A stretch of DNA of 64,000 nucleotides, from assembly GCF_964194155.1 (NCBI RefSeq), contig NC_135880.1:216442001-216506000 (forward strand), read 5' to 3'. Position 1 is the first letter of the stretch, and every line of letters begins with the position of its first letter. Below are positions 3,290 through 41,473 of this stretch, piece after piece. The translations under genes were made by a program, and so were the position numbers. Source of the DNA: Cetorhinus maximus (taxonomy: Eukaryota). Under the pieces are notes generated by a model. It did no database searches. It was not told the DNA's origin and saw only the letters and a program-made list of their open reading frames with translations.

Positions 3290-4022
3290 AACTTGTGCTC
3301 CTACCCCATTTCAGTGCGATACTGAGGGAGCACTGCACAGTCAGAGATGCGACATTTGGTTGAGATGTAAACTTGTGCCCCTTCTACCCCCTAAGACAGA
3401 TAAAGAAGTTCCCATGGTACCGCCTGGGCCAATATCTATCTCTCAGTCCACATAGTTGAAAATAAAGACCTGATGTCATTGCTGTTTGAGGGTCAATTCT
3501 CCAGGGCTTCAGCACAAAAAGCTGACACTCCATTGCAGTACCGGGGGCGTGTAGCACTGCTCGAGGTGACATTTTTTCAGATGAGATGTTAAACTCGGGG
3601 CCCAGCTGCCTGCTCAGATGGACGTAAAAGACCCCATTGGATTATTTCAAAATAGAGCGGGGGATTATTCCCGGTGTCCTGGCCAGTATTTATTCCTCAA
3701 TCAACGTTGCAAAAGCAGATTATCTGGTCATTATCACATGGCTGCTTGTGGGAGCTTGCTGTCCATAAATTGGCTGCTACATTTCCCACAACAGTACTAC
3801 ACCTCAAAAGTACTTCATTGGCTATAAAGCACTTTGAGACATCCATTGGTCGTGAAAAATGCTATATAAATGCACGTCTTTATTTTCTTCCTGTGTATGG
3901 ACTAGCTGCTGTGTTTCCTTACATTATAATTCAATACTTCAAGAGTATTTATTTGGCTGTAAAGCACTTTGGGACCTCCTGAGGCCGTGAAAGATGCTAT
4001 ATAGATGCGAGTTCTTTCTTTT
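3290..4022 (+). mobile_element. Cluster of Deu-domain SINEs (SacSINE1/AmnSINE-like) with a duplicated L2-like tail
   Basis: Deu core gctgacactcc..cagtac..gatgagatgttaaac..gacgtaaaagacccc and tail aaagcactttgagac..gctatataaatgca. The tail recurs at about 3895-4022. Confidence 0.75.
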
Positions 4023-4140
4023 ACTGTAAGCAGCCATCATCATTGCAATTCTTAATTACTTTCACTGCTGTTTGTACCTTTTTAGAATTTGCATACAATT
4101 ACACTGCACTGATTCCATTTTGGTTTTTCTTGTGTCTTAG

Positions 4141-4264
4141 GTCATCACAGCTCTTCCGCGCTTTCTACATTCCCATTTTGTCTGAGCAGTACACAGTGTA
4201 TGCAAACTATACGATTCTCAAACCCAGGAGATCAAAGCCAGTGCGGAAAAAGAGTGGAGGCTAG
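4141..4264 (+). CDS. ALG9: Terminal coding exon of alpha-1,2-mannosyltransferase ALG9
   Basis: Pyrimidine tract and acceptor tgtgtcttag| at 4140. Encodes (R)SSQLFRAFYIPILSEQYTVYANYTILKPRRSKPVRKKSGG*, which matches the vertebrate ALG9 C-terminus as I recall it (SSKLLRAFYVPFLSDQYTVYVNYTILKPRKAKQIRKKSGG). Upstream exons were not found in the window. Confidence 0.9.
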
Positions 4265-4530
4265 CACACTGCAACTGCAAGAGAGAGGAAGGGAGGAATC
4301 TCAATCAGAGACACTGACTTCCAAGTTCTGTACTCTCTCGTCTCGGTTAATGAATTAGATGTTTACATTTCTTGCCTGTCCTGTAATAATGTAAGAAAAG
4401 TCCGTCGTGTGCACTGCCTGCATCTTTCCTTTCTCGTCCGTTCTCTGACAATTATTGTGACTTTCGGGCAAGACTGTGGACCATCTGCTATAGCCCACAG
4501 AGGATAAATTTAAAATGCATTCCACATATC

Positions 4531-32925: not shown

Positions 32926-33181
32926 TGAAGTAATTGTGGTTTTGTTAAATGTTGGACTGTACCTTTAAGAATAGTCCTGTGACGTAAGATCACATGATCT
33001 GTGTAAACCAATGTGTTAGTAGCACGGGCTACCTCCACGGTCAGTGTAGAGATGGAGATGGAATTGAAAGCACACGTGTAGTTGCTGCCATCTGCATTGT
33101 AAATAAACCTAATATTTCCACTTAGAACGTTGTCTGCAGATCAACTCTATTACAAATAGGTGACTCGGCCACACTACAACA
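32926..33181 (+). repeat. 5' LTR
   Basis: tgaagtaattgtgg...cactacaaca, with an internal AATAAA. Direct repeat of 35987-36174 plus 40363-40426. Confidence 0.92.
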
Positions 33182-33184
33182 AAC

Positions 33185-33197
33185 TGGCGACAAGGAT
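33185..33197 (+). promoter_or_regulatory. Primer-binding site, likely tRNA-Ser(GCT)
   Basis: tggcgacaaggat lies 3 nt after the LTR and has one mismatch to TGGCGACGAGGAT, the complement of the tRNA-Ser(GCT) 3' end as I recall it. Confidence 0.7.
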
Positions 33198-33290
33198 AAA
33201 TCAGGATAAACCAGAATCAGTACAGTAACTCACCCAGCGATTGTAAGTATCAACGTCTGTTTAAAAGGACAGAAGATGTACTCACTCAAA

Positions 33291-34470
33291 ATCCCACAAT
33301 TTGGTAGAATCGATCCTTTTGAGCCAGCCACAGACGATTGGCCTCAGTTTATAGAACGCCTCGCATTCTTCTTTCAAGCAAACAAAATCACGGGAGAAGA
33401 GGAGGCGAGCGATCTCTTGAGCGCTTGAGAGCAAAATCTACTGTTTGATTCGAAGTTTGACAGCACCCAGCGCCCCACATTTGAAGAATTCAGAGAATTG
33501 GTTGTCCTCGTGAGGGGACGTTTTCAACCAAAGCCCTCAGTTACAATGCAGAGGTTCCGGTTGAACTTGCGAAATAGGTGAGGCAATTGCTAGCTACATA
33601 GTGAATTTGAAGCAACTAACAGAACATTGCGAGTTCAGTGAGACTCTGAACAACATGCTCAGAGATTGTTTAGTGTGTGGTGTGAAAGAAGACGCTATTC
33701 AGAGAAGATTGCTGGCTGATGTGAATCTGGATTTTAAGAAGGTGTTAGAAATAGCGCTGGCCATGGAAAGCGCTGTAAATGATTCACAAGCAAAACGTAC
33801 TCCAAATTGGGCGGGAACAGTCAGCCAAAAGGGGCGCGAAAAAGCGAGACTCCACCGTGAAGCAGGAAACAGCCCCCCGCTAACCGAAACATAAGAAGAA
33901 ATAATTTAGCAGCTAAATCGAAGAACAACTTTAATTGATGTGGAAACAATCAGCCTGTTAGCGATTGGCAGTTTAAAAAAAGTAGAATGTTATTTTTGTC
34001 ACAGAAGTGGACATGTAATGAGACAGAACAGAGAGATTTAAAAAGGCTTGCAAACAACAGAAGAAACCCAATGCATCTACAGTGTAGAAGAGCCTGAAAC
34101 AACAAATTCTGACATCTACTCATTGTTTAAAATGAAAGTTGGGGAGACAGAGCCAATATTTGTCACAGTACAAGTGAATGGTAAATCAGTAAAAATGGAA
34201 GTAGACATAGGATCTTCCACTACTGTAGAACACACTTTCAGATATTTAAATAAATTTGGAACATCTTCCAAGTTGAAAACATACACAGGCGAAGAAATCC
34301 AAGTGAAAGGTATCAGCAGAGTGACTGTCCATTATGGAAACCAATCGGCACAGCTGCCAGTGATGGTATCGAGAAGCAGAGAACCAAGTCTTCTAGGGCG
34401 AAACTGGTTAAGGGAAATCAACCTTGATTGGCCAGTGAGATTTCAAAGGAAGCTGGAAGAGTTCATGTCT
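33291..34470 (+). pseudogene. gag-protease
   Basis: PQFGRIDPFEPATDDWPQFIERL, EHCEF..MLRDCLVCGV, knuckle CYFCHRSGHVMRQ, MEVDIGSSTT, SLLGRNWL. Contains frameshifts. Confidence 0.9.
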
Positions 34471-35270
34471 TGAAAAAGGAACAAGACAAAATATGGCAGA
34501 AAGAGCCTGGAGAGTTCAAGGACCGCAACAGGGTGAAAAAGTAATGTGTGAGGACTCAACAGCCTGAAGAAACGCAGTCCCTCTCAAACAAAAACATGGA
34601 AAAACAGCAGAAGGAACTCAAGGAGACCCTAATGAATGCCAGAGTTCAAGACAAAGTGAGTAACCTTCGCAAGGAAAAGGAAAACCTGTTGATAAACCTT
34701 CAAACAAGATTCCCTCAGGTCAAAGCTTGTGCCACTGGAAGAGTACGAAGAGAAACAGAAAGAATTCAGCTTCTCTCTGAACAAACTAAAAAACCAGTTG
34801 GCAGAGAAGACACATCAATGTTCAAGTTTCCAGGAGGCAGCCATCAAATAAAAGAGACAGGAGAGCCGAAGAATCAGCTAAATAAAGTCAAAGAGACTTT
34901 GAAAACAAAAATTGGAGGGCTTTCCAAGAGTGAGCAGATAAACCAAGTTTTGGGAGACTCAGCATCTGAACTAAGACAAGTTGAGGTTTCACCTGAGTGC
35001 AGCCTGGCTGACAGCGAAGTAAAAATGAAGGACGAGACTAAATTCAGTGGTAGAGAAAAGGAAGAAGTTTCCGAAATTGCAATAAAATGGTGGCTGGTAG
35101 CATCTATAAACACTCGAAAGAGGCAATAAACAAATCATCGAACTGTGCTTACTTTGATATTATTCCAGTCTCTCACAATGGTTTACTGGATGATGATATT
35201 GAAGATAAAATCATAGAGGTACAAGTTACTTCCAAGGCCTTATCTGGAAAGAATTCTAGATGCCGTGGAC
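34470..35270 (+). pseudogene. Captured coiled-coil sequence, probably CALCOCO1/NDP52/TAX1BP1 family
   Basis: 193-aa ORF (34548-35129) with no retroelement motifs. Several colinear blocks resemble the CALCOCO1/TAX1BP1 coiled coil, compared from memory. Confidence 0.55.
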
Positions 35271-35274
35271 AAAC

Positions 35275-35900
35275 ATGAAGAAGTTAACGGGTGATTCGTT
35301 GGAGACCAAACTTGCACGATTTCTTTTCCACTACAGAATGACCCCCCACACAATGACAGGAAACGTACAGAATTGTTGATGAGATGCCCTCTTCGGACAA
35401 GACCGAGCTTAATATTTTCAAATTTGGAGGGGAAGGTGGAGAAGAGTTAAGGAAACCAAAAAGCTGCGCATGACTTGCATAGTCGTGAGAGACAATTCAC
35501 TGTTGGAGAGGCAGCATATGTGGAGAATTGCGATGGAGGACCAAAGTGGTTATCGGGTACAGTAAGTTCAGTGACCAAACCATTATCATACCATGTGGAA
35601 GTGGAAGGCTGGATCACCTGTAAGCATGTGGACCATTTAAGAAAAAGAGAGAGACCACAACAAAATATGGTTCCACTTGTAGCCATTCCTGAACCAGTGT
35701 TTCCTGTTGTAGATGCTCAACCAAGGACTGACATGTCTGATGTCTCTATCAGAGTGGAAGACATTGAACTGCAAGTGCCCACTGAGGTACCTGGTGTTCA
35801 TGCAGTCCCAGAGAATGTGGTTCCTGAAAAAGAATCTGAAGTTGTGGAGCTGTGACATTCCACAAGAATCAGGAAACCACCTGAAGGTTTGAACATGCAA
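35275..35900 (+). pseudogene. Integrase C-terminal part (no DDE core)
   Basis: MKKLTGDSLETKLARFLFHYRMTPHTMTG..RQFTVGEAAYV..GPKWLSGTV..PLSYHV..KHVDHLR. Confidence 0.88.
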
Positions 35901-35974
35901 ATTTCATGACCTGTGTAAATATTACAATGTCATGAGATAAATATACCTGTAAATTCATTACGCACAGCAAGGTT

Positions 35975-35986
35975 AAAGGGGGAGAA
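35975..35986 (+). promoter_or_regulatory. Polypurine tract
   Basis: aaagggggagaa immediately before the TG of the 3' LTR. Confidence 0.85.
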
Positions 35987-36174
35987 TGTAATAATTGTGG
36001 TTTTGTTAAATGTTGGAGTGTACCTTTAAGAATAGTCCTGTGATGTAAGATCACATGATCTGTGTAAACCAATGTATGAGCAGCGTGGGCCACCTCCACA
36101 GTCAGTGTAGAGATAGAGGTGGAATTGAAAGCACACGTGTAGTTGCTGCTGGCTGCATTGTAAATAAACCTAAT
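35987..36174 (+). repeat. 3' LTR, first part (remainder at 40363-40426)
   Basis: Matches the 5' LTR up to aaataaacctaat and resumes after the Harbinger with ttagaaagtcgtctgcagatc..ctacaaca. Confidence 0.92.
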
Positions 36175-36415
36175 GGGAGGAATTTTCCCAAATTTGCATT
36201 AAGTGCCAGCCGCAATAGCGGGTTTTCACGCTGTATTGTCCCAAACCCACCTCATTATTTATGCACTCCTGGGAAACACACAGTTTCCATGGCGGGTGGG
36301 CTCTTATTCACCCGCCCGCCATCACCCCCGCTGCATCACGCCAGGCGCCATGTTTAAAGTCCAGCTGCAAGCACACATCTCAGTGTTTCCAGCTCACCAC
36401 TGCTGCATGCAAGAC

Positions 36416-37350
36416 ATGGCCCTGAAACTGAAGAAGATTGCAGCCCCCAGGTTTAATGATGAGTCTCTTGAGCAACTTTTTGATGTCGTGGACTCCTGCC
36501 GGGATGTCCTGTACCCCGCTGTGGCCGCAGGATGGGCAGCAATGTGACCAGTCCGCAGTGGCAGGGGTGGTCAGCACCAACATCCTGCAAAAGAGGACAG
36601 CCACCCAGTGCCGCAAGAGGATGAAAGATCTCCTCTGTTCCGCCAGGGTAAGTCACTCTTTTCATCACTCTCAACTCACACACTCACAAACCCATCACAC
36701 ATCCACAGGGCTCTCACTCACTGCCAGTTCAAGGGACATCACTATTCACTCTCTCACACTCACCTTCATTGTCCTCATTCTATCCATGGGACCACTCACC
36801 ACTCACACATGCCAGGCATACTTGTCATTTGGCCTGGCAGGCATCCTGCTTACACTCTCTCCATTTCTATTCATGCAGGGCAAGCTGGCACACAACAACA
36901 GGGAGAGGTCACTTACCGGTGGCAGAATGCCCGAAATCAAGGTCCTCAAGGACTTTGAAAACAGATCCTCCAGCTGGCCGGTGAGGATCTAGACCAGTCA
37001 GGTCTGTGAGGTCGGTGCTGCTCTACCAAGTGAGGATCCAGCAGTGCAACATCCATCAGACACCAATGCCGTGAATGATGTAGGTGACTCCAAGAGTGTC
37101 TGACCCATCTGACTCCCCTCTTCCTGTGACCTCAGCAGCTCCAGCTCCACAGGCTGAGGAAGGTGTCACTGCCACACAGCAGGACCCTGAAAGCAGGCCG
37201 GGGCCCTACAAGTCTCAGCCCTCCAGAGGACGCCCACCAAGGTCATCACAGACAGGGTGTCACAGTCAGCAGGCTACCTCCACCTCTGCTGTGGATGTCC
37301 GGGGAGCACCAAGACGTAGCAGCGGGGTTAGGAAAGTTAAGGAAAATTAG
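36416..37350 (+). pseudogene. Harbinger Myb/SANT (MADF-like) DNA-binding protein
   Basis: MALKLKKIAAPRFNDESLEQL..KRTATQCRKRMKDLL. Intron gtaagt (36648) to catgcag (36878), then GKLAHNNRERSLTGG. Basic C-terminus PRRSSGVRKVK. Confidence 0.85.
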
Positions 37351-38125
37351 TTGCACAACCTGGGCACAGGTGTTGATCACCTGTAGATATTGTTCATTGT
37401 TGTCAATAAATTCCCAAGAATGTCTCCCTGCCTATGGCTCCTTGTTCTGATGAACAGTGTTCTTGTCACTCAGATGTGAAACCTTTCTGCACAAGATAAA
37501 GGCAGGTGTCTCAGTCCAGGGCCTCTTCCCTGTGCTTTGTGCAGCCTTCTGACTAAAGTGATGGTCCAGCCTCAAACTCTCTGGAAACATTACTGATGCC
37601 TGCACCTCGGTGGTTTTTGTCATTGCTGCCGGAATGTAGTCGGCAGGTGCCACAGAGTTCTCTCATACTCTCTGTGTGCTCTCAGCACCTTTAAGGCGGG
37701 GCTGGCCCCCATCTCTTTTCAGCATCTGTGACCAGTGATACTGTGCTCCAGCTCCTGAAGGGCCCAGGTGCTGAAGGCGGACAAAACATCAGAAAGTTTC
37801 ATGGCTGCATCTCAATGATATGATCCTGATCACAGAGTGCAAGTGGGTTGCCCTCGGCCAGACAGGAGTCAGACATTCTCAGAGGCTATGTGAAGATTTA
37901 TGGAGCGTCCTCACTGCATGTTGTCATCATCCTCCTGCGATCGAGTGTCTATTAGGGCCTCCACTGCGCCTCTATGACAGGAGCATTCTCACAGAGGGTA
38001 TTCGCGCTGCCATGTGGAGTCAAACATTCACAAATGTGATGTGAGGCACTATGGGGTCACCTCACTTCATGTTGTCATCACCCTCCACAAATTTAGCAGC
38101 TATGAAGGCCTCCCACGTGCCTACC

Positions 38126-39307
38126 TCATCTAGTCAGTGTGAGGGCCTCATCCCCATCATCGTCACCTCCGAGGACCTCCTCAGCCCCATCCCCATTGGC
38201 GTCCTCCTCATCCGAGGAGATTTCCAGCTCCTCCGTCTCCTCCTCAGCCAGCTCCTCTCCCCGTTGCAATGCCAGGTTGTAAAGGGCGCAGGAGATGACA
38301 ACAATGCGTGACATCTTCTGTGGGCTGTATTGCAGGGCTCCACCAGACCGGTCCAGGCACCAAAACTGCATCTTCAGCATCCCGATGGTCTGCTCCACCA
38401 AGTTGCGAGCTGCAGCATGAGCCTCATTATAGCGTTGCTCTGCTGCAGTCTGAGGCCTCCACACGGGTGTCATCAGCCACGGCCTCTGTGTGGAGCCCTT
38501 GTCCCTGAGGAGCCAGCCCTGCAGCTTCTGTGGACCTTGGAAGACTCCAGGGATCTGCCACTGACTGAGGATGTAGGCGTCGTGCACACTCCCTGGAAAC
38601 AGTGCGCATACCCGCAGGATGCGTTTCTGGTGGTTGCACACCAACTGCACATTCAGCGAATGGAAGCCCTTGCAATTGATGAAGTCCACTGAGTATTGCG
38701 ATGGAGATCTGAGCGCCACATGGGTGCAGTCGATCGCACCCTGCACCTGTGGGAAACCCGAGATCTGGGCAACTTCAGTCGCTCTTGTATCCTGGCTGTC
38801 CTGGTCTGGGCAAAATGCAGAAAGTTGTGTGCCCTTGCAATGATGGCATCCGTGACTTCATGGGTGCAGTTACGTGTGAAGGCTTGTGAGATTCCACAGA
38901 GGTCACCTGTGGAGCCCTGAAAGGAGCCACTGGCTTAGAAATTGTGCACTATGATCACTTTCACAGCCACTGGCAGTGGATGCCCTCCATGGCCCCGTGG
39001 CACCAAATCCTGCAGTAAGTGGTAGATGTGACTGACCAGTTCCCTAGACATTCGCAATCTTCAGCGACACTGATTCTCGGTCATGGCAGGTATGAAAGGC
39101 GATGTCTCTAGACCCTGGTTGTCGCCAGGCGCCGGCCTGTGACAGCTTCTGTGGCTCTTCAGTGGTGTGTGCGGGAGCCCCAGCCACTCCTTCTTCCTGA
39201 GGTAGCTGCTCCTCCCTCTACGCAGCCAGGAGCCTCCGTCGCTCTCTCCTCCGTTGTCTTTGTGCTCTGTAGGCCAACAGACATGCAGCTCATTCACTAG
39301 GCTCCAT
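38126..39307 (-). pseudogene. Harbinger transposase (HARBI1-like DDE_Tnp_4)
   Basis: GAIDCTH, KGFHSLNVQLVC, PGSVHDAYIL, LLRDKG, YNEAHAAARNLVEQTIGMLK. The N-terminal part is frameshifted. Splice acceptor just upstream of the ATG (39326). Confidence 0.93.
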
Positions 39308-41473
39308 GATCCTGATGTACTCCTCCTGCAGGAGGAAAGAAAGAGACACGTTGTCAGCTTGGCTGTACTGAGAACCTGTCCTGGTTAAGTGTGACAGCCA
39401 CTTAATGCTTCCCGGAGAGTGCTGACCACCACTTGGATGGCCAGAGATTAGTGCACTGCATGGCAGCTCTGTCAGCTTGAACCATGGGGGACACTGGTCC
39501 AAACCGGGATGCTGACATTGCAAGGGGCTGTGAGCACCTGCAGCAGTGACTGTTACATGGCCAGCTTTAGCGAGGAGATTGTACAACGTGTGCAGTCCAA
39601 CTTCTCTGCATCTGCTAAAGTGCTCATGAATTTGCAGTCTGTACCTGAGGTGAGGGTAGGGAAGCAGATCTGGAGAACGTAGCGGCACTTTGATGCCTCT
39701 GCGTTGCTTGAGTGGGCAGGTAAGCTAGGAGCTTGACCCCCAATCATTTCAATGTGGCTGCGCCTGAACTGTCTCGGTTGCAGCCTTTCTACAGGTTTCC
39801 CGAATGCGTGGCCCCTTCTCTCACCCACCCTACCCAACCCATGAATGATTGCGTGGTATATTCAACAGCAAGGCTGCACTTGCCCCCTGCTCCCCCTCAC
39901 CCTCAAAATTCACCTCTGAGGCAGGGCGACACTTAACCCCGACCCCCCCCCCACACCCCCACCCCTCCCCAGCGCCCCTGAAGCCTGCAAAGCAACAGGC
40001 GACCCTGGCGAGCTCTGCAGAACATTGCTGCGCACCCAGCTCCAGTTCACTCAAAGTAAAGGGCACCAAGTGCACGTCGCCTCTGTGCTGTTGTGAAATA
40101 CGCTGGCGCACTTTCCCGCTGACCTGGACGGACAATCCAGCGGGGCTGCAAGAGCCTGGGGAGGGGGAATGGCCTGATAATGATATGCTGATGTATTACA
40201 ATGAGGTTCCCAACGACTGATGGCAGGAAACGCGGCCCGACATCGGTGGGCTGAGTGGACAATCGCAACCTGCCTTCCTGCCATTGTGAAACCGATTGCG
40301 TCATATTGTCCACTTATGCCACCTATCACGCCCGCCGCCAGCAGGCATGGAAAATTCCACCCAACGTTAGAAAGTCGTCTGCAGATCAACTCTATTACAA
40401 ATAGGCAACTCGGCCATGCTACAACAACCTTGCACTTTTTATCTATCACTCACCTTGGAGTTCTCGGCATTTACATTGAATCAGAACTTGTCCAATAAAT
40501 AGGGCAACCCTTGTGTTGAAATACTTCATGGGCATTTACTACAGAATCAATTGATTGGAATAGGGATGAATGCAAAAGGACTGGCTGGAAAATGTTTAAG
40601 CACTAATGTATTAAATCAACCACGTTACGATCTGGAGATTTTTTAATGTTTGTTTTTCATTTTCAGTACCAAGGATATATTTTTCCCAGGAATTTCTGGT
40701 CCTTGTGATTTAATTCCCACTGTTTGGTTCCTTTGCCCAGGGAATTCCATTCCTGGGGTCCATTTTCTCCAGTGAATTCTGATCCTTATGTCCATTTTGC
40801 ACAGATAGGTCAGAGCCAAGGATTGATCGTTCCCAGGGAACGTGGTGGCTTAGACCGATGGTCAGTGCTCAATTTCTTTTGACTATCAAGTCAATTATTG
40901 AATTGAATGGCTTAAATTACCCAATGGATATCACGCTGCTGAGGACACACATCTTTTTTCTCCAGTGGTCAACGATTGAAAATCAGATGTAGGACCATCA
41001 AGTCCGACGGAACTTTAGATCCAACATTTTTTGCTGTATTTGAAAAATATAAAAGAGTTATCCTTTACCCCAGCTTTAACTTTATTAACAGAAATTCGGT
41101 AATGATATCTTATGCAATATGTAAATGAAGTGATTGAAATTCCCTGTATGTTTTGCTGGCAGGTTTTTACAAGCAGAATTCCGTGCGTACACTTTGCATT
41201 GGTTAGTATGCAATGTGTGAGGAGCAAAGAAGCTTCATCTTGTTTTATAGTCAGCGCAAACACAGGAAAATGAAACAATTACTGAGGGTGCAGCAAGGAA
41301 CTAGTCTGAGCTGATCATTAAAATAATGTGGAAAGCAGCTATTGTGATTTAATTCACTGGCAGCTATTGAAGAGACTGCAATCTGACAATGAAGGAAAGG
41401 AGCCTTATTTTAATTTTTTTTCCCCCTCCCCCCCGCCCCCCGCAAATCCTGAGCTTTTGAGGCAAACACCATG

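What the first reader, a model, noticed from the sequence alone, without database searches (positions are those of the whole stretch)
34434..35275. LTR retrotransposon whose RT-RNase H-IN core is replaced by a captured autophagy-receptor-like (CALCOCO1/NDP52/TAX1BP1) coiled coil
Seen: the protease end (SLLGRNWLREINLDW) and the integrase tail (MKKLTGDSLETKLARFL) are normally separated by RT, RNase H and the IN core. Here about 800 bp of intronless sequence encoding a K/E/Q-rich helical protein lies between them. Comparison from memory with human CALCOCO1, blocks in the same order: RTQQPEE-TQSLSNKNMEK ~ RILELEDDIQTISEKVLTK (TAX1BP1 KAHQLEEDIVSVTHKAIEK); RVQDKVSNLRKEKENLLINL ~ RLRDTVKALTREQEKLLGQL; QIKETGEPKNQLNKVKE ~ RVAELEPLKEQLRGAQE; SEQINQVLGD ~ SQQKATLLGE; LADSEVKMKDETKFSGREK ~ LAELGLHLKEEKCQWSKER; EIAIKW ~ KVADEKW. 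SKICH, LIR and zinc-finger parts are not visible. Established: this coiled coil dimerises these receptors, and NDP52 has been implicated in autophagic clearance of retrotransposon RNPs. Inference: a transduced host mRNA fragment carried by a non-autonomous Gypsy family, possibly a protease-released decoy against selective autophagy. This copy is decayed (stop at 34542, frameshifts).
Basis: partly seen in the sequence, partly recalled or inferred. Interest (0 to 1): 0.88.

Follow-up and report, generated by a model that had tools for sequence, protein, structure and literature searches.

The report
Shark jumping genes carry stolen coiled-coil
A dead shark jumping gene carries, in place of its copying enzyme, a piece of the host gene UACA (not an autophagy receptor), the remnant of a three-gene cassette that passed between several jumping-gene families with its reading frame kept open, likely as translated filler rather than as a decoy.

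Summary
The anatomy is real; the name was wrong. The window holds a decayed Gypsy element whose reverse transcriptase, RNase H and integrase core are missing. The helical insert is shark UACA: E 1e-27, 69-77% DNA identity to one 2.7-kb host exon; the CALCOCO1 profile does not hit it. It is a family, at least about 69 places, with Gag, protease and coil in one frame. Older elements with a different LTR and Gag carry a longer in-frame chimera, UACA + ninein + spliced TPR mRNA; a third family has the cassette in place of RT only. Capture predates the lamniform-carcharhiniform split. No stop became fixed where 4.6-6.4 were expected (P 0.002-0.01), yet dN/dS 0.65 is not below the neutral 0.71-0.87, against 0.14-0.30 for the backbone. 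So the frame is kept, the sequence barely. Autophagy decoy rejected. New variant of LTR-mediated gene capture (maize Bs1-like); not found in my literature searches.

The parts
32926..33181 (+). 5' LTR, about 256 bp
   Evidence: direct repeat; ends read from sequence
33185..33196 (+). primer-binding-site-like motif just after the LTR
   Evidence: same motif after the LTR in sibling copies; matching tRNA not tested
33276..34150 (+). gag with zinc knuckle, broken in this copy
   Evidence: sibling frame L015 has weak Retrotrans_gag and zf-CCHC hits, E 0.004 and 0.012; 72-76% DNA identity to RT-bearing relative L109
34151..34433 (+). aspartic protease
   Evidence: Asp_protease_2 E 1.7e-6 in L015; DTG motif in 12 of 29 copies, DMG in 6
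34434..34532 (+). diverged protease-RT linker and RT start of the element itself, not captured
   Evidence: collinear without net gaps with RT-bearing family L168/L172/L173/L174
34533..34873 (+). UACA block 1 (host exon bases about 1504-1856; about aa 901-1020 of P0001); stop at 34542-34544 and frameshifts near 34703 and 34850 in this copy
34865..34976 (+). UACA block 2 (host exon bases about 2298-2409), joined to block 1 by a 450-nt in-frame deletion shared with older families
   Evidence: 450 nt in 25 of 30 loci, 449 and 456 in one each, unresolved in 3
34977..35040 (+). linker inherited from the older cassette, donor unknown
   Evidence: aligns with O-family copies; not above shuffles against UACA or ninein exons
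35041..35085 (+). basic tail and family stop codon; tail arises at the cassette/RT-thumb joint read out of frame
   Evidence: alignment with V family; stop motif in 23 of 30 loci
35086..35274 (+). unassigned family-specific stretch, possibly degenerate pol
   Evidence: no significant match in held loci; alignment to integrase core not above shuffles
35275..35900 (+). integrase C-terminal tail
   Evidence: 70-75% DNA identity to RT-bearing relatives starting at 35274-35278
35975..35986 (+). polypurine tract
   Evidence: sequence
35987..36174 (+). 3' LTR, first part
   Evidence: 173 of 189 identical to the 5' LTR
36175..40362 (.). later DNA-transposon insertion splitting the 3' LTR (Harbinger-like)
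   Evidence: terminal inverted repeats; DDE_Tnp_4 E 3e-29
40363..40426 (+). 3' LTR, last part
   Evidence: 57 of 63 identical to the 5' LTR end

Best explanation
The insert is a twice-trimmed piece of the large coiled-coil exon of shark UACA, fused in frame behind Gag and protease of a non-autonomous Gypsy family, and it was likely kept as translated filler whose open frame mattered more than its sequence. Shown: donor, family, in-frame fusion, descent from an older UACA-ninein-TPR cassette, spliced TPR junctions, presence in three backbones, no fixed stop. Inferred: capture and transfer by RT template switching between co-packaged RNAs; mobilisation in trans by the related RT-bearing family; benefit of the open frame, likely RNA survival or translation-coupled packaging of an element that lost pol, with purine-rich helical coding sequence being tolerated filler.
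For: Donor. Older chimera and spliced TPR. Three backbones: O has unrelated LTR/Gag, V has the Gag of the RT-bearing family, W has a Gag diverged from both; W+V nest inside O on a 0.25 stem, support 1.0. Frame kept: 0 fixed stops over 171 codons and 0.275 substitutions per site, 4.6-6.4 expected from the terminal-branch rate, P 0.010-0.002; 30 of 34 private indels in the W insert break the frame, none is family-wide. Sequence loose: internal dN/dS 0.65 (0.45-0.97) versus terminal 0.71-0.87; radical share 0.38 versus 0.40; the same method gives 0.14-0.30 for gag, protease and IN tail. Mechanism precedent: PMC5131818.
Against: The benefit (RNA stability, packaging) is untested; no expression data. 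The stop test assumes the same stop rate per substitution on internal and terminal branches. In W about 900 nt still follow the stop, so decay avoidance is not complete. In-frame junctions (15 of 17 types seen in three or more copies) are weak evidence: 45-83% of chance microhomologies in these exons are in frame. Three of three identified donors being long coiled coils is not explained by filler alone. Proline/glycine changes are somewhat rarer on internal branches (P 0.07), a hint of structural constraint.
Confidence: 0.55

Rival explanations
1. The coiled coil is a working dimerisation or multimerisation module: it would replace RT's role in bringing two proteases together (W, V) or oligomerise a truncated Gag (O).
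For: It sits where RT was, in frame behind a protease whose active-site motif was intact; long helices predicted; in HIV-1, RT deletion impairs protease activation and a leucine zipper at the protease C-terminus enhances Gag cleavage (PMC3291649, passages); O copies fuse it in modal frame to a Gag-like fragment (17 of 30 and 29 of 33); all three donors are coiled coils; such a role needs little exact sequence.
Against: dN/dS and radical-change share not below neutral; no O-family protease detected; very different pieces are kept in different subfamilies; I could not show that the protease stayed under selection after RT loss, since the IN tail shows the same low dN/dS.
Confidence: 0.22
2. Neutral passenger: the cassette only pads the RNA to a packageable length, and open frame and in-frame joints are by-products of codon-phased microhomology and luck.
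For: dN/dS near neutral; microhomology null of 45-83% in frame; in V the cassette-to-RT-thumb joint is in frame in only 5 of 27 copies, so not every joint is kept.
Against: No fixed stop against 4.6-6.4 expected and no family-wide frameshift inside the cassette.
Confidence: 0.15
3. Host-mimic decoy or targeting device: TPR, ninein and UACA coils would pair with their host partners at the nuclear basket or centrosome, easing export or transport of element RNA.
For: TPR forms coiled-coil homodimers at the basket and its yeast homologue retains unspliced mRNA (PMC2876962, passages); NIN mRNA localises to centrosomes through its nascent protein (PMC7921559, passages).
Against: The window family lost ninein and TPR and still spread; weak sequence constraint; pieces are riddled with internal deletions.
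Confidence: 0.06
4. One reading: captured CALCOCO-family coil acting as an autophagy decoy.
For: Only generic coil likeness (z 3.1 to one TAX1BP1-like exon, similar to z 3.5 for ninein).
Against: UACA match z 26.7, E 1e-27, collinear DNA identity; no CALCOCO1 profile hit.
Confidence: 0.01

Closest known systems
LTR-mediated retroposition in animals (PMC5131818; abstract, section 6 and passages read)
   Same: Part of the internal ORFs replaced by partial host mRNA, multi-gene chimeras, sense and in-frame, further copied as non-autonomous elements.
   Different: Those cases are young or single loci; here the cassette is ancient, amplified into large families, serially trimmed and moved between three backbones.
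Maize Bs1 (as summarised in PMC13317346; passages read, original papers not read)
   Same: LTR element with segments of three host genes forming a chimeric ORF.
   Different: Bs1 donors are unrelated enzymes; here all three identified donors are long coiled coils, in a vertebrate Gypsy.
Extra ORFs shared between retroelement types in bdelloid rotifers (PMC5408684; passages read)
   Same: Accessory coding sequence exchanged between distinct retroelements.
   Different: Those are separate ORF3 enzymes or env-like genes in autonomous elements, thought not to be host captures; here host mRNA replaces RT.
Engineered HIV-1 Gag-PR-leucine zipper (PMC3291649; passages read)
   Same: Same domain order: Gag, protease, coiled coil in place of RT and IN.
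   Different: A laboratory construct; over-activation lowered particle yield. Functional likeness here is untested.

Membership tests
CALCOCO1/NDP52/TAX1BP1 | Pfam CALCOCO1 (PF07888) match | tested here: not met
   0 of 11 frames; genome search hits two host exons only
CALCOCO1/NDP52/TAX1BP1 | SKICH domain, LIR, zinc finger | tested here: not met
   no SKICH or zinc-finger hit in the insert frames; LIR not separately tested
UACA-derived sequence | best protein hit and collinear DNA identity to the host UACA gene | tested here: met
   6 of 7 hits named UACA, best E 1e-27; 69-77% DNA identity to G000:C27 exon
UACA (whole gene or retrogene) | ankyrin repeats plus full coil | tested here: not met
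   only exon bases 859-2409 occur in any fetched element
Ty3/Gypsy LTR retrotransposon lineage | LTRs, PBS, PPT, gag, protease; order PR-RT-RNase H-IN in intact kin | tested here: met
Autonomous element | own RT, RNase H and IN core | tested here: not met
   absent between 34533 and 35274
LTR-mediated mRNA capture | spliced exon-exon junctions | tested here: met
   for TPR in the O family: e.g. 15 of 15 and 16 of 16 copies at two joints; not testable for UACA or ninein, each from one exon
LTR-mediated mRNA capture | microhomology at switch points | tested here: inconclusive
   BLAST blocks overlap by about 9-15 nt at the shared deletions; original junctions too diverged to score
Functional accessory protein | purifying selection on amino acids | tested here: inconclusive
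   0.65 (0.45-0.97) versus neutral 0.71-0.87; stop deficit significant
Functional accessory protein | expression and activity | not testable with these tools
   no RNA holder listed

The most novel reading that the evidence does not exclude
Shark Gypsy elements built, from three host mRNAs, a portable coiled-coil module that substitutes for reverse transcriptase as the dimeriser of Gag-protease, and traded it between retrotransposon families for over a hundred million years: a natural counterpart of engineered Gag-PR-zipper constructs and a host-derived accessory module of RT-less parasites.
Probability: 0.22. Interest if true: 0.82.

Novelty: new variant of a known kind. Interest (0 to 1): 0.58.

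Why it matters
It is a large, datable record of serial mRNA capture by LTR elements in a vertebrate: three coiled-coil genes fused in frame, trimmed stepwise and swapped between unrelated backbones, with many fossil copies per step. It lets one test what keeps captured host sequence in a parasite (frame versus sequence), a question usually limited to single loci. Practically, these copies create false UACA, ninein and TPR paralogues and spurious gene models in shark annotations (P0007, P0051, P0052, P0056).

Tried and rejected
CALCOCO identity: rejected. 'Cassette is an in-frame spacer that keeps RNase H and integrase translated in V': rejected, in frame in 5 of 27 copies. In-frame junction count as proof of selection: weakened by the microhomology control. 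35090-35270 as decayed integrase core: looked collinear but not above shuffles in 9 of 9 comparisons. Linker donor: not found; the Atlas look-up for it did not complete. dN/dS between old subfamilies: branches too short, three of four intervals span 1. Homodimer prediction: no verdict, score 0.14 against a mark of 0.32; no evidence either way. Sequencing runs: no RNA holder listed; no reads laid. IQ-TREE run timed out; FastTree used. Direct autonomous parent of the window family not found among 30 of 30,669 RNase H candidates and 25 of 5,295 integrase-core candidates. DNA of other sharks' UACA and elements could not be obtained, so dating rests on proteins. No target-site duplication recognisable at this copy. 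Earlier scan notes: nothing relevant.

Full report
Observation. The window holds a decayed LTR element from 32926 to 40426. Its LTRs are 230 of 252 identical; the 3' LTR is split by a 4.2-kb Harbinger-like insertion. Between the protease end and the integrase tail lie about 840 bp, where RT-bearing relatives have about 2,070 bp. The stop at 34542 and frameshifts are real. A genome search with the insert gave 3,299 first-look candidates; 40 were scored and all matched, the 39 other than the window at 84-87%. All 30 fetched loci carry both junctions in one block. A search with the family-specific stretch gave 186 candidates, 40 scored; the two lists overlap at 11 places, so at least about 69 places are verified. 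Candidate numbers are not copy numbers. In several copies the protease runs without a stop into the coil (302 and 286 aa). I call this family W.

Identity. Pfam CALCOCO1 hit none of 11 frames. A search of 5.8 billion proteins gave 7 hits, 6 named shark UACA, best E 1e-27, 53% identity. A word-free phmmer search over 1.8 billion representatives also gave 7 hits: one named ray UACA, three short named shark models, three unnamed, none named CALCOCO. The host exon is G000:C27:11440482-11443208, one open 2.7-kb exon 95% identical to great white UACA. W carries two pieces of it, bases about 1504-1856 and 2298-2409, at 69-77% DNA identity, joined by a 450-nt deletion. The CALCOCO1 profile finds two host exons and no element (stricter first look); the insert scores z 0.9 and 3.1 against them and 26.7 against UACA. 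Only about 34533-34976 is UACA. 34434-34532 is the element's own diverged protease-RT linker; a short linker of unknown donor, a basic tail and a stop follow; 35090-35270 is unassigned.

Where the cassette came from. The UACA search also found many elements with longer pieces, within exon bases 859-2409. These O elements have their own LTRs and share nothing with W outside the insert by blastn or tblastn (19 loci); their 5' frame resembles retrotransposon Gag by Atlas features (0.92-0.95; no Pfam hit). Behind UACA they carry ninein (E 6e-10) and TPR (E 1e-40; Pfam Nucleoprot-TPR 9e-14). The ninein piece is from one large exon. The TPR piece joins up to eight host exons spread over 14 kb end to end, for example 15 of 15 and 16 of 16 copies in frame at two joints: proof of mRNA capture for that part. 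UACA-ninein and ninein-TPR joints are in frame in 15 of 18 and 22 of 27 copies, Gag fragment to UACA in 17 of 30 and 29 of 33 at two steps. A third family, V, appeared in 8 of the 25 best integrase-core hits and in 40 of 40 scored hits of a junction query: the cassette replaces RT only. V's gag is indistinguishable from the RT-bearing family, W's is dS 0.28-0.35 away. W and V cassettes form one clade nested in O on a 0.25 stem (FastTree, 27 copies). So the cassette moved at least twice between backbones (inference).

Age. With 18 element rows against eight host proteins, elements carry the lamniform state at 0 of 17 diagnostic columns, the carcharhiniform state at 0 of 7, and the state shared by both orders at 7 of 8. 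Capture thus falls after the horn-shark split and before the two orders parted (Jurassic, from recall). A catshark protein, P0056, shows UACA block 2, linker and ninein-like sequence in the same order (by eye). Terminal branches: O 0.105, W and V 0.056 substitutions per site.

Selection. I used pairwise distances only (29 W, 26 V, 27 O copies; L004 dropped as a near-duplicate, four V loci for low coverage). Cassette dN/dS on internal branches is 0.65 (0.45-0.97) against 0.71-0.87 on terminal branches (one search agrees for kappa 2-4). Radical changes are as common inside as outside; Pro/Gly changes slightly rarer, P 0.07. Gag, protease and IN tail give 0.14-0.30 by the same method, so the method has power; because the IN tail is also low, that signal may date from an autonomous past. 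No stop is fixed in any family; 4.6 (recurrent columns removed) to 6.4 were expected, P 0.010-0.002. 30 of 34 private indels in the W insert break the frame, none is family-wide. Fifteen of 17 junction types seen in three or more copies are in frame, but chance microhomologies in these exons are in frame 45-83% of the time, so I give this little weight. Against a tidy story: V's joint to the RT thumb is in frame in only 5 of 27 copies.

How it most likely works. Shown: an RT-less element encoding Gag-protease-coil-stop. Inferred: it was copied by the related RT-bearing family (LTRs 74-80% alike); the cassette arose and travelled by template switching as described in PMC5131818; selection kept it readable but not exact. 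The simplest benefit is at RNA level, translation continuing across the gap left by pol; donors are purine-rich (62-70% against 53% for RT). The main rival is a protein role as dimeriser, with a laboratory precedent in HIV-1 (PMC3291649). Neither is tested; all copies I examined look dead.

Known systems and novelty. Closest are LTR-mediated retrocopies (PMC5131818: abstract, section 6, passages) and maize Bs1 (PMC13317346: passages). PMC5408684, PMC2876962, PMC7921559 and PMC3291649 were read as passages. Searches for UACA with retrotransposon, shark LTR gene capture, elasmobranch retrocopies with TPR or ninein listed no description of this family; I saw listings only, no supplements, and repeat libraries such as Repbase or Dfam could not be checked, so it may be catalogued without the donors named.

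Noticed in passing
window 36175-40362: Harbinger-like DNA transposon with terminal inverted repeats inserted into the 3' LTR; DDE_Tnp_4 E 3e-29 on the minus strand at 38129-38857.
   Followed up: partly
L038-L056, L071-L078, L117-L141: O families: LTR elements of about 3-5 kb with a Gag-like fragment fused to UACA, linker, ninein and spliced TPR, with many nested deletions.
   Followed up: yes
L167, L170, L181-L210: V family: cassette replaces RT only; RNase H and integrase remain, mostly out of frame, with an A-rich joint of variable length.
   Followed up: yes
L043, L044, L045 near 4000-4400 (oriented): A second copy of UACA block 2 plus linker placed upstream of the main UACA piece, a rearranged order.
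   Followed up: no
L074:2228-2425 and equivalents: Unassigned helical-looking segment between the O Gag fragment and UACA, in frame in 29 of 33 copies; possibly a further captured gene.
   Followed up: no
L164, L166: V-like variants keeping more 5' UACA with a different internal insert.
   Followed up: no
P0007, P0051, P0052, P0056: Database gene models that look built from element copies; P0007 splices an element piece between MHC-class-I-like parts (by eye).
   Followed up: partly
L003 and L004; L007: Two near-identical copies 1.4 Mb apart on C19, and a copy with a second insert fragment inside its gag.
   Followed up: no
window 8000-62000: Many short dispersed repeats, SINE/LINE-like by recall.
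   Followed up: no
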